This document shows positions 59,519-62,961 of a stretch of 64,000 nucleotides of DNA, piece after piece. The notes beneath the pieces are model-generated. The model was given only the letters and a program-made list of their open reading frames with translations, made no database searches and was not told where the DNA came from. Each line of letters starts with the position of its first letter. Positions within the stretch are counted from its first letter, which is position 1. Origin of the DNA: a virus. Position numbers and translations under genes: made by a program. Location of the stretch: the IMG/VR virus record IMGVR_UViG_3300027734_002590, positions 1-64,000 of that record; one strand, 5' to 3'.

Positions 59519-59547
59519 ATTATACAATAAGAATTTAATTTTGTCAA
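59519..59547 (-). promoter_or_regulatory. internal sigma70 promoter within tRNA array
   Basis: Perfect TTGACA-17-TATAAT. Confidence 0.85.
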
Positions 59548-59553
59548 CTATTT

Positions 59554-59627
59554 TGGCACGGGAACTAGGGCTCGAACCTAGAATGACAGAGTCAAAGTCT
59601 GTAGTGTTACCATTACACTATTCCCGA
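59554..59627 (-). tRNA. tRNA-Gln(TTG)
   Basis: Loop CTTTGAC. Confidence 0.9.
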
Positions 59628-59637
59628 ACAGATTGAA

Positions 59638-59860
59638 TTTGTAAGCCTACGCCGCTTTTATCGTAGATTTATTCAGGACTTACCGGCCGCCTAGCCTGAC
59701 CTCGAGCACGATGGATATCACTTGGGTACCTGTCCAGTTTAGTCGCCTCAATGGACCCCTGCAGTTCCCCGCAGGGTGGGTGTCGAACCCATCGCCTTCT
59801 ACTGTTTCGGTCCTTCGAAGAAACCTAGACAGCGTGACTGTACTTGCTGACACTTACAAA
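59638..59860 (-). ncRNA. unidentified ~220-nt structured RNA with a T-loop
   Basis: TTTGTAAG/CTTACAAA closing stem; internal TGGG-TTCGACA-CCCA. Confidence 0.65.
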
Positions 59861-59863
59861 ACT

Positions 59864-59939
59864 TGGTAGTAACGGTCGGACTCGAACCGACGATAAACAC
59901 CGTATGAAGGTGGTGCATTAGCCACTATGCTACGTTACC
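59864..59939 (-). tRNA. tRNA-Met(CAT) (elongator or Ile2 type)
   Basis: Loop TTCATAC. Confidence 0.88.
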
Positions 59940-59940
59940 A

Positions 59941-60030
59941 TATGTAAACACACTTCATGAGCATGAGCTCACTTGTCTCCTTGCCCTAACTCTTGTGTTA
60001 AGGATCCGAAGGATAGAGTGTGTTTACATA
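59941..60030 (-). ncRNA. unidentified multi-branched small RNA
   Basis: 15-bp closing stem TATGTAAACACACTC/AAGTGTGTTTACATA with internal hairpins. Confidence 0.55.
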
Positions 60031-60106
60031 TGGTAGGACCGCCCGGACTCGAACCGGGAATTGGCAGATTAAAAGTCTGCTGTGATAACCATTTCACTAC
60101 GATCCC
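60031..60106 (-). tRNA. tRNA-Lys(TTT)
   Basis: Loop CTTTTAA. Confidence 0.93.
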
Positions 60107-60169
60107 ATATACAGTACTAAGTTGATTTAATGTGCCAACCTTAGACCGTACATGGGATCTAAGGAGACA

Positions 60170-60190
60170 CTAACGTTTACTACGTTTCAT
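60170..60190 (-). CDS. 6-codon minigene MKRSKR
   Basis: AAGGAGA RBS 5 nt before ATG AAA CGT AGT AAA CGT TAG, followed by a hairpin. Confidence 0.5.
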   Translation of the reverse strand: MKRSKR

Positions 60191-60204
60191 GTCATTCTCC
60201 TTTG

Positions 60205-60432
60205 TTAAACTACTTTCTTAAGATACTCTGTACCTACCTTACCTTCTTGAATTTCAAGCAATGCAGTTACATTTGGATGCAAATGCTCAAACTTCAAACT
60301 TTCTTTGTTACGTCGACTAATCTCACGTGAACGAACCGCGGCCATCAATACTAAATCATATCGATTGCCACCTGCAAGCTCAACACATTTATCGGTGTCG
60401 ATTTCCGAACTACGACTGATACCTTTTTTCAT
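60205..60432 (-). CDS. rpoZ: RNA polymerase omega subunit homologue
   Basis: NRYDLVLMAAVRSREI and VTALLEIQEGKV match omega conserved regions. Confidence 0.82.
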   Translation of the reverse strand: MKKGISRSSEIDTDKCVELAGGNRYDLVLMAAVRSREISRRNKESLKFEHLHPNVTALLEIQEGKVGTEYLKKVV

Positions 60433-60451
60433 ATATTACCTTTTTAAAACT

Positions 60452-60527
60452 TGGTGCTACCTCCAGGGATCGAACCTGGTTCCTCGGTTCTTCAGACCGG
60501 TGCTATGACCACATCAGCTAAAGTAGC
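60452..60527 (-). tRNA. tRNA-Phe(GAA)
   Basis: Loop CTGAAGA. Confidence 0.9.
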
Positions 60528-60528
60528 A

Positions 60529-60604
60529 TGGCGTACCCTCAGGGCCTCGAACCCCGAACCTCTGGTTTTGGAGACCAGCACTCTGCCAATTGAGCTAAGG
60601 ATAC
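60529..60604 (-). tRNA. tRNA-Trp(CCA)
   Basis: Loop CTCCAAA. Confidence 0.92.
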
Positions 60605-60610
60605 ATAATT

Positions 60611-60700
60611 TGGTCCCCCAGTGTGGAATCGAACCACATCCTGGACCTTATCTAGATTAATCGCTTATAAAACGACCTGCTCTCCTTGAGCTACTGGGGG
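60611..60700 (-). tRNA. tRNA with TAT anticodon (Ile) and long extra arm
   Basis: GTCGT-TTTATAA-GCGAT arm, ~21-nt variable region, CCA. Confidence 0.75.
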
Positions 60701-60706
60701 AGCGTT

Positions 60707-60781
60707 TGGTATAGCGTACGGGGATCGAACCCGCCTAGTCACCTTGAAAGGGTGATGACCTCCCCAGAAGTCGAACGCTAT
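60707..60781 (-). tRNA. tRNA-Glu(TTC), second divergent copy
   Basis: Loop CTTTCAA. Confidence 0.88.
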
Positions 60782-60787
60782 ATAATT

Positions 60788-60861
60788 TGGAGCGGGATAG
60801 GAGAATCGAACTCCTGACTAAACCTTGGCAAGGTTTCGTTTGACCATTAAACTAATCCCGC
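60788..60861 (-). tRNA. tRNA-Gly(GCC)
   Basis: Loop TTGCCAA. Confidence 0.92.
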
Positions 60862-60866
60862 ATACT

Positions 60867-60941
60867 TGGTGGAGGATGGGAGGATCGAACTCCCACTTCA
60901 TGCTTGCAAAGCACATGTGCTCCCATTATCACTAATCCCCC
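60867..60941 (-). tRNA. tRNA-Ala(TGC)
   Basis: Loop TTTGCAA; G3:U70. Confidence 0.92.
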
Positions 60942-60948
60942 AATAAAC

Positions 60949-61025
60949 TGGCTCCCCGTCGTGGGCTCGAACCACGGACATCGACATTAACAGTGTCGCG
61001 CAACTACCAACTGTGCTAACGGGGA
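60949..61025 (-). tRNA. tRNA-Asn(GTT)
   Basis: Loop CTGTTAA. Confidence 0.92.
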
Positions 61026-61032
61026 ATAAACT

Positions 61033-61107
61033 TGGTGCCCCAGGAAGGAATCGAACCTCCACACCCTGATTACAAAACAGGACCTCTACCACTAAGGATA
61101 CAAGGGC
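61033..61107 (-). tRNA. tRNA-Thr(TGT), second copy
   Basis: Loop TTTGTAA. Confidence 0.88.
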
Positions 61108-61115
61108 GTAAAACT

Positions 61116-61190
61116 TGGTAGCCTATCTTGGGAACGATCCAAGGACCCCCGCCTTATCAAGACGGTGCTCTACCACTGAGCTAATAGGCT
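61116..61190 (-). tRNA. tRNA-Ile(GAT)
   Basis: Loop TTGATAA. Confidence 0.9.
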
Positions 61191-61195
61191 ATATA

Positions 61196-61283
61196 TGGCG
61201 GAGGATATAGGAATCGAACCTATCCACCCATTACTGAATGACAGTTTAGCAAACTGTTGCCTTAACCGCTCGGCCAATCCTCC
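61196..61283 (-). tRNA. tRNA-Ser(GCT)
   Basis: Loop TTGCTAA, long arm. Confidence 0.92.
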
Positions 61284-61289
61284 ATAACT

Positions 61290-61364
61290 TGGCGATCCTG
61301 CGGGGAATCGAACCCCGATATCCGACTAGACAGGCCGGTATAATAACCACTATATGACAGGACC
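61290..61364 (-). tRNA. tRNA-Asp(GTC)
   Basis: Loop CTGTCTA. Confidence 0.9.
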
Positions 61365-61369
61365 AAATT

Positions 61370-61458
61370 TGGTGGAGATGATAGGATTCGAACCTATTGC
61401 GTTTCTTAAGTACCGGATTTACAGTCCGGGGCCACTCCACCATCGTAGCCGCATCTCC
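61370..61458 (-). tRNA. tRNA-Tyr(GTA)
   Basis: Loop CTGTAAA, long arm. Confidence 0.9.
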
Positions 61459-61468
61459 AAATTTATTA

Positions 61469-61700
61469 ACACTCTCCGGCTATGCCTGTCCAGGGCCCGA
61501 ATGGACGTCCCTAAGGAGAGTGTGTATTAAAACATACTGATAACGCCTGCTATGCAGTACCAGACTATGGGTTTGGCCGTCCCTTTCAATATGCTTTAAT
61601 ACGCTGTAATTTTTCATCTCACAAAAGAGACTTCATCCTACAGGCCGCCCGTTTACTACTGTTTAGCGTGTGTAGCGAGGACCTCGTTTCCCCTACCACG
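61469..61700 (-). ncRNA. three abutting small structured RNAs
   Basis: Closing stems ACACTCTCC/GGAGAGTGT (61469-61523), GTATTAAAGCATATTGA/TCAGTATGTTTTAATAC (61524-61602), and two hairpins in 61603-61700. Confidence 0.55.
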
Positions 61701-61707
61701 TTGTACT

Positions 61708-61872
61708 TTAGTTTACACTAAACGTTGGACATTTGTTCAACGATTCACTGTAAATTTTAGCACGTTCAAACTTATTTTGAATAAGTTTTTGAAATTGTTC
61801 TTTAGTTAGAACACTTTCATAAGCCTGTTCAACAATTCGTTCATTCAATTTTTCGTAATCTATCTCTGTCAT
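61708..61872 (-). CDS. small hypothetical protein, first gene after the attenuator
   Basis: AAGGA RBS, start ATG 61872 (MTEIDYEKL). Confidence 0.55.
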   Translation of the reverse strand: MTEIDYEKLNERIVEQAYESVLTKEQFQKLIQNKFERAKIYSESLNKCPTFSVN

Positions 61873-61891
61873 TTTTTCCTTTTGTAAAAAC

Positions 61892-61921
61892 AAAAAACCC
61901 TGGGTTTTTAATCCAGGGTCC
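61892..61921 (-). terminator. intrinsic terminator (attenuator) at head of tRNA operon
   Basis: ACCCTGG-ATTAAAAAC-CCAGGGT then TTTTTG. Confidence 0.85.
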
Positions 61922-61948
61922 TTGAAGTTTTGAAATGTAATTAAGTTG

Positions 61949-62098
61949 TTACTTAACCATCCCAGCCCCCCGGACCCTTGTAATCTCTACTGGTAAACGA
62001 TCTGAATGTAGACTATTGATCGCTAACCAATAAGAGGGCATTACGCCGCCTTGTTTGGCTATCGTATTCAGTTGTCTAAAATTACAGGTTGCTTTCAT
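61949..62098 (-). CDS. 49-aa leader peptide containing all 20 amino acids
   Basis: MKATCNFRQLNTIAKQGGVMPSYWLAINSLHSDRLPVEITRVRGAGMVK; GGAAAC upstream; antiterminator strand AGGGTCC at 61972-61978. Confidence 0.75.
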   Translation of the reverse strand: MKATCNFRQLNTIAKQGGVMPSYWLAINSLHSDRLPVEITRVRGAGMVK

Positions 62099-62156
62099 TT
62101 CTGTTTCCAGTTCTCTTTCTTTAAAAATTACATCGTTATCTCTAACGTATGTGTAT

Positions 62157-62377
62157 ATTGTATGATCTTTTGCACTTGCTGTCAACCCCTACTTGCATCT
62201 TTTTTGTTGTATTTTTACAACGGTGATTTGCCTGTAGACAGTTTCTAGCGTATGTCTATATTATGTACTTATTTATCTCTCTTGTCAACCCCTATATAAT
62301 AGGCCGATTTTGAATCGTTGTAAATTTACAACAGTGATGTTATAATTTATATTAGCATCAAGAACGCGGCCTGTCAA
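62157..62377 (-). promoter_or_regulatory. three tandem sigma70-type promoters upstream of the leader
   Basis: TTGACA-17-TACAAT (62157-62185), TTGACA-17-CATAAT (62260-62288), TTGACA-17-TAATAT (62349-62377). Confidence 0.75.
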
Positions 62378-62415
62378 TCTGAGCCGCTGTAAATAATAAC
62401 AACAAAGGAACTTAT

Positions 62416-62961
62416 ATGCAAATCTACAGACTCGAATCAGATGCCTTTGTAGTCACGTTCAACCAATTCAAAGACAACCGAGGATGGTTTTCTGAAACAT
62501 GGTCAGACAAGTGGCTACCAGACCTAGGCATTCCATCTCCCTTCGTCCAACAGAACACAGTTTGGACAGAAAATAAAAATACCATTAGAGGATTACATGC
62601 ACAATCTGCACCAGCAGAGGTTGCAAAATTTATCCGAGTGATTAAAGGCAGTATCTTAGATGTGTTTGTCGATGCTCGTCAACAAAGTCCAACATTTGGT
62701 AAATGGTTTAGTTATGAACTGAACGAATCTACTCCACAGATACTTTACATTCCAACTGGTTTTTATCACGGGTATATGACTTTAACAGATGATGTTATTG
62801 TTCACTATCAACAAGATGCATTCTTTGAGCCTGCATATGAGCAAGGTTTGATATGGAATGACCCAACACTACAAATTGATTGGCAGTTAAACGGTGCAGT
62901 ACCCGTTGTTTCAACAAAAGATGCACAACAACAGACTTGGGATCAAGTCCACAAATTTTAA
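62416..62961 (+). CDS. rmlC: dTDP-4-dehydrorhamnose 3,5-epimerase
   Basis: DNRGWFSE, IRGLH, SPTFGKW, IPTGFYHG, WNDP. Confidence 0.92.
   Translation: MQIYRLESDAFVVTFNQFKDNRGWFSETWSDKWLPDLGIPSPFVQQNTVWTENKNTIRGLHAQSAPAEVAKFIRVIKGSILDVFVDARQQSPTFGKWFSYELNESTPQILYIPTGFYHGYMTLTDDVIVHYQQDAFFEPAYEQGLIWNDPTLQIDWQLNGAVPVVSTKDAQQQTWDQVHKF

What the first reader, a model, noticed from the sequence alone, without database searches (positions are those of the whole stretch)
61892..62185. Candidate pan-codon attenuator: a leader peptide using all 20 amino acids gates the phage tRNA array
Seen (minus strand): promoter TTGACA-17-TACAAT, then a 49-codon ORF (62098-61949), then an intrinsic terminator (ACCCTGG/CCAGGGT + U-tract, 61921-61892), then the tRNA array. 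The ORF contains all 20 amino acids by codon 38 (single C, F, Y, W, H, D, E). By hand count it uses 39 different codons in 49 positions, including all 4 Ala codons, all 3 Ile codons and Arg AGA/CGT/AGG/CGG, which is unexpected in an AT-biased genome. Right after the set is complete, codons 40-43 carry AGGGTCC (61978-61972). This is exactly complementary to GGACCCT, the 5' arm of the terminator (extendable by GGGG/CTTC), so the two structures are mutually exclusive. Established: trp/his/thr-type attenuators couple ribosome stalling on leader codons to antitermination, but each senses one to a few amino acids; host anticodon nucleases (e.g. PrrC) deplete tRNAs during infection. Inference: this leader is a universal translation-health sensor. 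A stall at any starved or cleaved-tRNA codon would free the antiterminator and transcribe 15 tRNAs plus omega up to the internal promoter at 59547, and probably beyond. The window's tRNAs also cover all 20 amino acids. I know of no described phage system like this.
Basis: partly seen in the sequence, partly recalled or inferred. Interest (0 to 1): 0.95.

Follow-up and report, generated by a model that had tools for sequence, protein, structure and literature searches.

The report
All-amino-acid leader switch before phage tRNAs
A giant lake phage and over a hundred relatives put a ~48-codon test gene, which nearly always contains all 20 amino acids, inside a terminator/antiterminator RNA switch ahead of their tRNA genes, so they probably make more tRNA whenever ribosomes cannot read the test gene fast enough.

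Summary

The window is a fragment of an uncultured giant phage. I collected 52 distinct homologous loci and 154 distinct leader peptides.
- All loci have a consensus promoter, a 43-56 codon ORF, a ~65-nt antiterminator hairpin and an intrinsic terminator.
- The antiterminator 5' arm (GGGTCC) covaries with the terminator 5' arm in four complementary versions. It is kept in two reading frames.
- The ORF stop codon always lies inside the antiterminator. A ribosome that finishes the ORF should therefore free the terminator.
- 113 of 154 leaders hold all 20 amino acids and 41 hold 19, none fewer. Background is about 2%.
- His occurs exactly once in 139 leaders, at 11 different sites. Cys occupies 22 sites.
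- A tRNA array follows in 25 of 25 informative loci. Three full arrays cover all 20 amino acids.

Corrections: the property is pan-amino-acid, not clearly pan-codon. The antiterminator is much larger than 7 bp. A small ORF and an RNA element lie between the terminator and the tRNAs.

The closest known system is the whiB7 uORF attenuator. I found no published description for phage tRNA genes. This scan met the same family earlier in three other genomes. Nothing has been tested experimentally.

The parts
62157..62185 (-). Proximal sigma-70-type promoter TTGACA-17-TACAAT. The predicted start of the RNA is near 62150.
   Evidence: 11 of 12 consensus positions. A TTGAC[AT]-17-TAnnnT promoter is present in 55 of 55 distinct homologous upstream regions; its -10 element ends 45-64 nt before the ATG in 54 of them (10 nt in L015).
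62260..62377 (-). Two further tandem promoter-like sites (62288-62260 and 62377-62349) that would also feed the leader.
   Evidence: 11 of 12 and 10 of 12. Function is inferred.
62099..62150 (-). 5' untranslated region, with a small 5' hairpin and a purine/A-rich stretch before the ATG (a weak Shine-Dalgarno-like AGAGAA/GGAAA).
   Evidence: The stretch GAGAAAACAAA-ATG is nearly invariant in alignment A3.
61949..62098 (-). Leader ORF of 49 codons plus TAA. It contains all 20 amino acids.
   Evidence: The ORF is open in all homologues found. Of 154 distinct peptides, 113 hold 20 amino-acid types and 41 hold 19.
61985..62036 (-). Hairpin inside the ORF (codons 21-38). The conserved core is GGU..GCGAUY / GAUCGY..ACC at 62029-61992. 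It is a candidate RNA polymerase pause hairpin.
   Evidence: It is nearly invariant even at synonymous sites, and there are no compensatory changes, so the structure is neither supported nor refuted. The role is inferred.
61972..61978 (-). Region 2, the 5' arm of the antiterminator (AGGGUCC), inside codons 41-43.
   Evidence: It covaries with region 3 and is kept in two reading frames.
61915..61978 (-). Whole antiterminator hairpin. It consists of helix R2:R3 (7 bp), helix GGGG:CUUC (61969-61966 with 61927-61924), and an apical hairpin (61964-61931) whose 5' arm and loop hold the stop codon at 61951-61949.
   Evidence: -28.0 kcal/mol, z -5.5. The same architecture appears in every homologue at -22 to -32 kcal/mol.
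61915..61921 (-). Region 3 (GGACCCU). It is shared by the antiterminator and the terminator, so the two structures exclude each other.
61886..61923 (-). Intrinsic terminator: stem 61923-61913 with 61903-61893, a 9-nt loop, and the tract U6-G-U5.
   Evidence: -14.3 kcal/mol. The RNAalifold consensus has a covarying pair (UG 15, CG 12, UA 6).
61708..61872 (-). ORF2, 54 codons, with a strong ribosome-binding site (AAGGA) directly after the U-tract. It is the first gene behind the switch. Function is unknown.
   Evidence: There is no Pfam or PHROG family. Some relatives lack it.
59554..61458 (-). First block of the tRNA array: 15 tRNAs from Tyr to Gln. No strong promoter was found between it and the switch.
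   Evidence: The next consensus promoter is at 59547-59519.

Best explanation
This is a ribosome-mediated transcription attenuator at the head of the phage's tRNA gene array.

Proposed mechanism (inferred from the geometry):
1. Transcripts from a strong sigma-70-type promoter contain a ~48-codon leader ORF.
2. The last 3-10 codons and the stop codon of that ORF form the 5' half of a long, stable antiterminator hairpin.
3. On naked RNA, or when the ribosome lags, this hairpin forms and sequesters region 3. The weaker terminator cannot form, and RNA polymerase runs on into ORF2 and the tRNAs.
4. If a ribosome translates the whole leader in step with the polymerase, it melts and covers the 5' half of the hairpin. 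Region 3 then pairs with region 4, and transcription stops at the U-tract.

The leader is kept under selection to contain each of the 20 amino acids, most of the rare ones about once. A shortage of almost any charged tRNA should therefore slow the ribosome and raise tRNA transcription. This would be homeostatic, demand-driven control of a tRNA set that itself covers all 20 amino acids.

Shown here: the anatomy, the covariation, the conserved completeness and the synteny.
Inferred: translation of the ORF, the coupling kinetics and the direction of control.
For: Anatomy.

RNA switch:
- The R2:R3 helix plus its GGAG:CUUC extension forms standard pairs in 96.9% of cells. Six of 11 pairs show compensatory changes. 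None of 500 shuffles reaches this, and slid controls pair in 64% of cells at most.
- Among 52 distinct attenuators the arm pairs are TCC/GGA in 40, TTC/GAA in 7, TTCC/GGAA in 3, CTT/AAG in 1, and one G.U case. The flanking pair is A-U in 22, G-C in 19, G.U in 9, with 2 mismatches.
- The same region-3 base also covaries with region 4.
- The GGGTYC motif is conserved although it is read in two different frames.

Energetics:
- The antiterminator is -28.0 kcal/mol and the terminator is -14.3 kcal/mol. The whole-leader minimum-energy fold keeps the antiterminator.
- All 31 distinct sequences folded and the 23 further viral loci folded form the R2:R3 helix before region 4 is transcribed.

Geometry: the stop codon lies 8-27 nt after R2 and 17-31 nt before R3 in all 52.

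Completeness:
- Of 154 distinct leaders, 113 hold 20 amino-acid types and 41 hold 19. Background 49-residue windows reach 20 types in 2% of cases.
- The set is already complete in the 38-43 codons upstream of R2 in 24 of 31 leaders. Background 40-residue windows are complete in 0.6-1.1% of cases.
- Column shuffling gives a mean of 9.4 and a maximum of 17 complete leaders out of 31, against 25 observed.
- His occurs exactly once in 139 leaders, twice in 14 and never in 1, at 11 sites. Cys occupies 22 sites. Tyr is never absent.
- The peptide sequence itself is weakly constrained (pN/pS 0.69).

Target:
- A same-strand tRNA array starts 280-2200 nt downstream in 25 of 25 informative loci, with varying gene order.
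- The leader sits at the head of the array in 4 of 5 long records.
- Three full arrays hold 33-38 tRNAs covering all 20 amino acids, as does the window.

Precedent: the same logic, efficient uORF translation giving termination, and dependence on uORF composition have been shown experimentally for whiB7.
Against: - There are no expression or ribosome data.
- The ribosome-binding site is weak.
- Cys is missing from 33 of 154 leaders. One Cys-less leader (L068) still precedes an array with tRNA-Cys.
- Leader codons are not enriched for codons read by the phage tRNAs (86% against 85% genome-wide).
- In many leaders the only early Glu codon lies within about 3 codons of R2. A ribosome stalled there would partly cover R2.
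- Internal consensus promoters at 59547 and 56145 mean that only the first 15 tRNAs are clearly gated.
- Phage-specific promoters downstream of the terminator cannot be excluded.
- The intra-ORF hairpin has no covariation.
Confidence: 0.75

Rival explanations
1. The switch is a real attenuator, but it reads only global translation capacity, that is ribosome loading, host shut-off or ribosome-targeting stress. The full amino-acid set would have no sensing role.
For: The RNA switch and the stop-codon geometry would respond to any delay of the ribosome. Codon choice shows no match to the phage tRNA set. A Cys-less leader precedes an array with tRNA-Cys.
Against: It does not explain three observations: 154 diverged leaders never fall below 19 amino-acid types; His is kept at exactly one copy while moving among 11 sites; and completeness exceeds every column shuffle.
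Confidence: 0.12
2. The ORF is an ordinary small protein gene with its own terminator and a function in trans. The long hairpin would only stabilise the 3' end of its mRNA.
For: The ORF is conserved and was called as a hypothetical protein in many assemblies. A core motif (IAK...W.A...DRTP) is conserved.
Against: - pN/pS is 0.69 and codon periodicity is weak.
- C-terminal tails differ by frameshift while the nucleotide motif is kept.
- The hairpin competes with the terminator and covaries with it.
- No protein family matches.
- Core conservation extends to synonymous sites, which points to RNA-level constraint.
Confidence: 0.06
3. The ORF is not translated and the transcript is a structured non-coding RNA. 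It could be, for example, a protein- or metabolite-controlled terminator switch or a small RNA ending at the terminator.
For: The leader folds strongly (z -4.4). Much of the conservation is at the nucleotide level.
Against: - The ATG is invariant.
- The frame is open in every homologue in spite of indels and frameshifts.
- The stop codon is always inside the antiterminator.
- Conserved amino-acid completeness has no meaning for an untranslated RNA.
- No Rfam family matches.
Confidence: 0.04

Closest known systems
whiB7 / wblC uORF transcription attenuator of Actinobacteria (bioRxiv 10.1101/2023.06.02.543512, read)
   Same: A long, compositionally diverse uORF precedes an intrinsic terminator. 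Efficient uORF translation gives termination, and stalled translation gives an antiterminator and readthrough. It senses general translation stress and starvation for many amino acids. [quoted passage not shown] Removing Trp from the uORF removed the response to Trp starvation.
   Different: It is a bacterial element that controls a transcription factor for antibiotic resistance, not tRNA genes. Its uORF composition varies between species (the M. tuberculosis uORF lacks several amino acids) and is enriched for alanine. Here near-completeness is conserved in 154 variants, with rare residues relocating. There is no sequence homology.
Leader-peptide attenuators of enterobacterial amino-acid operons (trpL, hisL, leuL, thrL, pheL; own knowledge, and PMC1183508 listed)
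   Same: Promoter-proximal short ORF, mutually exclusive antiterminator and terminator hairpins, and control by ribosome position.
   Different: Those leaders carry runs of one to a few regulatory codons and control the matching biosynthetic operon. Here there are no runs: every amino acid is present about once to a few times, region 2 lies inside the ORF, and the target is a tRNA array.
Antibiotic-responsive ribosome-stalling attenuators (for example the tylosin-induced yxjB leader, PMC6851288 listed)
   Same: Ribosome stalling in a leader ORF switches a terminator off, so they act as translation-stress sensors.
   Different: They respond to drug-dependent stalling on specific nascent peptides and control resistance genes.
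T-box riboswitches (own knowledge)
   Same: They monitor the supply of charged tRNA and control genes of the translation apparatus by antitermination.
   Different: A T-box binds one specific uncharged tRNA directly and has no ORF. No T-box match appears in the Rfam scan.

Membership tests
Ribosome-mediated (leader-peptide) transcription attenuator | Promoter-proximal short ORF with a start codon and a ribosome-binding region | tested here: met
   The ATG is invariant, the ORF is 43-56 codons and open in all homologues, and an A/G-rich stretch is conserved before the ATG. The Shine-Dalgarno match is weak. Translation itself is not shown.
Ribosome-mediated (leader-peptide) transcription attenuator | Intrinsic terminator between the leader ORF and the regulated genes | tested here: met
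   A GC-rich stem plus U-tract at 61923-61886. It is conserved, with a covarying pair.
Ribosome-mediated (leader-peptide) transcription attenuator | An alternative antiterminator that shares bases with the terminator and is supported by covariation | tested here: met
   four complementary arm versions, and 0 of 500 shuffles reach the observed covariation.
Ribosome-mediated (leader-peptide) transcription attenuator | The ORF is placed so that ribosome position decides which structure forms | tested here: met
   The stop codon lies inside the antiterminator, 8-27 nt after R2 and 17-31 nt before R3, in 52 of 52 attenuators.
Ribosome-mediated (leader-peptide) transcription attenuator | Readthrough changes with translation of the leader | not testable with these tools
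   This needs reporter, Term-seq or in vitro assays.
Classical amino-acid operon attenuators (trp/his/leu type) | Clustered regulatory codons for the amino acid made by the operon | tested here: not met
   There are no codon runs. All 20 amino acids are present, seven of them only once in the window.
whiB7-type broad-sensing uORF attenuator | Homology to, or genomic linkage with, whiB7/wblC in Actinobacteria | tested here: not met
   The context is a phage, the downstream genes are ORF2 and tRNAs, and there are no protein family hits. It works like this family but is not a member.
T-box riboswitch | Specifier loop and T-box sequence recognised by the Rfam model | tested here: not met
   No T-box match at E up to 10 in 61400-62420.

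The most novel reading that the evidence does not exclude
The leader is a purpose-built universal sensor of charged-tRNA supply. Selection keeps one codon for every amino acid upstream of the antiterminator, replacing a lost residue elsewhere by gain before loss. The phage then raises its own full tRNA set whenever any single host tRNA is starved, degraded during host shut-off, or cut by a tRNA-targeting defence such as PARIS, retron effectors or anticodon nucleases (PMC10264068, PMC11464382 and PMC11555353, listed). This would be a sensor-actuator loop for counter-defence and the first attenuator known to control tRNA genes.
Probability: 0.5. Interest if true: 0.92.

Novelty: new variant of a known kind. 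Interest (0 to 1): 0.85.

Why it matters
How phages regulate their tRNA genes is largely unknown. Why they carry full tRNA sets is debated: codon compensation, replacement of degraded host tRNAs, or escape from tRNA-cleaving defences.

A conserved switch that couples tRNA transcription to the speed of translating a 20-amino-acid test gene would show that these phages measure translational need and respond to it. It would also be a natural, compact, host-independent reporter of the supply of every charged tRNA, which is useful for synthetic biology.

The evolutionary signal itself is unusual. Composition is conserved without sequence conservation: His is kept at exactly one copy while moving among 11 sites. 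This offers a way to find other sensing leaders.

Tried and rejected
- **Isolated phages:** blastn and tblastn found no relative of the leader or ORF2. The family is known only from uncultured freshwater material.
- **Rfam:** only sub-threshold chance hits.
- **Pfam and PHROGs:** nothing for the leader or ORF2.
- **Neighbouring epimerase-like gene as a synteny anchor:** no loci.
- **Pan-codon claim:** the number of distinct codons, given the peptide and genome codon usage, is only +1.6 sd on average, with P at or below 0.03 in 13 of 31 leaders. I keep 'pan-amino-acid' and drop 'pan-codon'.
- **Match of leader codons to phage anticodons:** 86% against 85% genome-wide, so no signal.
- **Idea that Cys-less leaders go with arrays lacking tRNA-Cys:** not supported by the one case I could examine, L068.
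- **Intra-ORF hairpin as a proven structure:** the pairs are invariant, so there is no covariation evidence either way.
- **The look-up of encoding contigs:** The giant contigs (375-387 kb) that carry Cys-less leaders could not be fetched.
- **A second profile scan of viral contigs:** added nothing new. An exact DNA-word scan did add loci.

Full report
**1. Source and observation**

The window is the first 64 kb of a 101,662-nt IMG/VR virus record. CheckV rates it 28% complete, so it is a fragment of a giant phage, with 39.8% G+C.

- promoter TTGACA-17-TACAAT at 62185-62157;
- a 49-codon ORF at 62098-61949;
- AGGGTCC at 61978-61972;
- a terminator with U-tract at 61921-61892.

The ORF holds all 20 amino acids by codon 38 and uses 39 distinct codons.

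Background values:
- In 49-codon windows of this genome's long ORFs, 1.9% are complete and none of 2084 reach 39 codons.
- In random sequence of the same composition, 0.04% show both properties.
- The genome has 141 short ORFs of similar length, so this single case is only marginal by itself.

ORF2 (61872-61708) has a strong ribosome-binding site and sits directly behind the terminator. About 240 nt of non-coding sequence lie before the first tRNA at 61458. Two further promoter-like sites lie upstream.

**2. Relatives**

No isolated phage carries the element. Other searches found many relatives:
- Scans of viral and metagenome contigs with the peptide, a peptide alignment and a conserved DNA word gave 11, 33 and 28 loci.
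- A profile search of 5.8 billion proteins gave 464 hits at E up to 0.01, on contigs up to 387 kb.
- After removing duplicates I worked with 52 distinct attenuator sequences and 154 distinct leader peptides.
- All 55 distinct upstream regions have a TTGAC[AT]-17-TAnnnT promoter; its -10 element ends 45-64 nt before the invariant ATG in 54 of them (10 nt in L015).

**3. The RNA switch**

I truncated the sequences before region 4 and ran RNAalifold. It predicts a 7-bp helix between GGGUCC (R2) and GGACCC (R3), extended by GGAG:CUUC.

Pair counts on that alignment:
- 96.9% of cells form standard pairs.
- 6 of 11 pairs show compensatory changes.
- 0 of 500 shuffles reach this.
- Slid controls pair in 64% of cells at most.

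Arm pairs among the 52 attenuators:

| R2 arm / R3 arm | count |
|---|---|
| TCC / GGA | 40 |
| TTC / GAA | 7 |
| TTCC / GGAA | 3 |
| CTT / AAG (L068, which also changes the extension helix to UUAG:CUAA) | 1 |
| G.U case | 1 |

The flanking pair is A-U in 22, G-C in 19 and G.U in 9, with 2 mismatches. The same R3 base also covaries with its terminator partner (UG 15, CG 12, UA 6).

The R2 motif is read as Gly-Ser/Phe in most leaders but as Arg-Val-Arg in the window and its near kin. It is therefore conserved as RNA, not as peptide.

Before region 4 exists, every sequence folds into one long hairpin of -22 to -32 kcal/mol. Its apical stem-loop contains the stop codon. In the window:
- the antiterminator is -28.0 kcal/mol (z -5.5);
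- the terminator is -14.3 kcal/mol;
- the fold of the entire leader keeps the antiterminator.

The stop codon lies 8-27 nt after R2 and 17-31 nt before R3 in all 52.

Inference: naked or slowly translated RNA reads through. A ribosome that reaches the stop codon in time melts and covers the 5' half of the hairpin and leaves R3 free to form the terminator. This is the logic reported for whiB7.

**4. The leader composition**

- Of 154 distinct leaders (43-56 residues), 113 contain all 20 amino-acid types and 41 contain 19. The missing residue is Cys in 33, Val in 6, His in 1 and Leu in 1. None has fewer than 19.
- Counting only codons that lie wholly upstream of R2 (38-43 codons), 24 of 31 leaders are already complete and 7 have 19. 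Background 40-residue windows are complete in 0.6-1.1% of cases.
- The conserved core supplies about 18 types, so the real test is whether the rest are kept. Shuffling residues within alignment columns gives a mean of 9.4 complete leaders out of 31, with a maximum of 17 in 5000 shuffles. The observed number is 25. The result is similar for subsets thinned to 60-80% identity.
- His is present exactly once in 139 leaders, twice in 14 and absent in 1. It occupies 11 sites relative to the invariant Trp. At the genome's His frequency (2.1%) I calculate that about 36% would lack it.
- Cys occupies 22 sites.
- Tyr is never absent. For example, where Tyr before the Trp is replaced by Cys, a Tyr appears before the Asp-Arg motif.
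- Two-copy intermediates far outnumber zero-copy ones for His (14 against 1). That fits gain before loss under selection against absence.
- Peptide sequence as such is weakly constrained (pN/pS 0.69). Several core codons are invariant even at third positions, which points to RNA-level constraint.

**5. Codons rather than amino acids?**

Given each peptide and this genome's codon usage, the number of distinct codons is higher than expected in 29 of 31 leaders. The excess is modest: mean z is +1.6 and the window's own z is 2.5. The GC-rich structured tail may contribute.

Under strict wobble rules, the window's 27 anticodons read 86% of leader codons against 85% of codons genome-wide.

I therefore accept 'pan-amino-acid' and not 'pan-codon'.

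**6. What is controlled**

- In 25 of 25 loci with enough downstream DNA, a same-strand tRNA array begins 280-2200 nt after the leader. The gene order differs between loci.
- In four of five long records the leader heads the array. In the fifth, two tRNAs precede it.
- Three full arrays hold 33-38 tRNAs for all 20 amino acids. The window holds 30 tRNAs for all 20.
- In the window the only promoter-like site between the terminator and the first tRNA is weak (9 of 12). Consensus promoters reappear at 59547 and 56145. The first 15 tRNAs are therefore the clearly gated set.
- One Cys-less leader (L068) still has tRNA-Cys 6.8 kb downstream. The leader's content does not simply mirror the array.

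**7. Comparison and novelty**

Full-text searches found no description of an attenuator before phage tRNA genes or of a leader kept complete for all amino acids.

A lead from an earlier report of this scan took me to the whiB7 uORF attenuator, and I read that paper. It senses many amino-acid starvations through a diverse uORF, and the composition of the uORF decides what is sensed. The concept therefore has an experimental precedent.

Four things are new here: the viral setting, the tRNA target, the closed feedback loop, and family-wide selection for completeness.

This scan has met the same family before in three other genomes, with concordant follow-ups. My results are independent of those in data but not in idea.

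Recent work on tRNA-cleaving defences and phage tRNAs makes an alarm role plausible, but it is untested.

**8. Limits**

- There is no evidence of expression, translation or termination.
- The host is unknown.
- The role of the invariant hairpin inside the ORF is open. It could be a pause site.
- The column-shuffle test ignores phylogeny, although the relocation counts do not depend on it.

**Verdict**

It is a new variant of a known kind of regulator. Confidence in the mechanism is 0.75 and interest is 0.85.

Noticed in passing
window 62206-62221 and 62317-62332: Perfect palindromes GTTGTA-N4-TACAAC, each followed by an A-run, lie just upstream of the -35 elements of two of the three tandem promoters. 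There are 3 matches in the window against 0.25 expected. A similar palindrome lies within 400 nt upstream of the leader in 36 of 55 relatives. It may be a regulator binding site.
   Followed up: partly
window 61708-61872 (minus): ORF2 (54 aa) has a strong AAGGA ribosome-binding site right after the terminator U-tract. It is conserved in many relatives but absent in others, and has no Pfam or PHROG family. It lacks several amino acids, so it is not a second sensing leader.
   Followed up: partly
window about 61670-61699 (minus); L016, L023, L025, L034, L013, L012 directly after the terminator: A conserved hairpin with a GAAACGAG-like loop (stem of the TAGGG...CCCTA type). In relatives that lack ORF2 it follows the terminator at once, preceded by AGACTTTCGAAA. 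It is an unknown RNA element between the switch and the tRNAs, with no Rfam match.
   Followed up: no
window 62129-62134 (minus): A minimal AUG-UAA start-stop pair in the 5' untranslated region of the window's leader. It is not conserved in the aligned relatives.
   Followed up: no
L051:1526-1594 (also L008:2839-2907): ARAGORN reports a tRNA-like gene with a four-base anticodon (ttga) inside the array of a related phage.
   Followed up: no
window 60611-60700; L049:8208-8299; L050:810-899; L051:5110-5201; L068:7434-7525: A 90-92-nt tRNA-Ile with anticodon UAU and a long extra arm recurs in all the related arrays I examined.
   Followed up: no
L002:3634-5100: In one relative a 488-aa ORF with a CxxxCxxC motif lies between ORF2 and the tRNAs, so it too is behind the switch. 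It might be a radical-SAM-type enzyme, but this was not tested.
   Followed up: no
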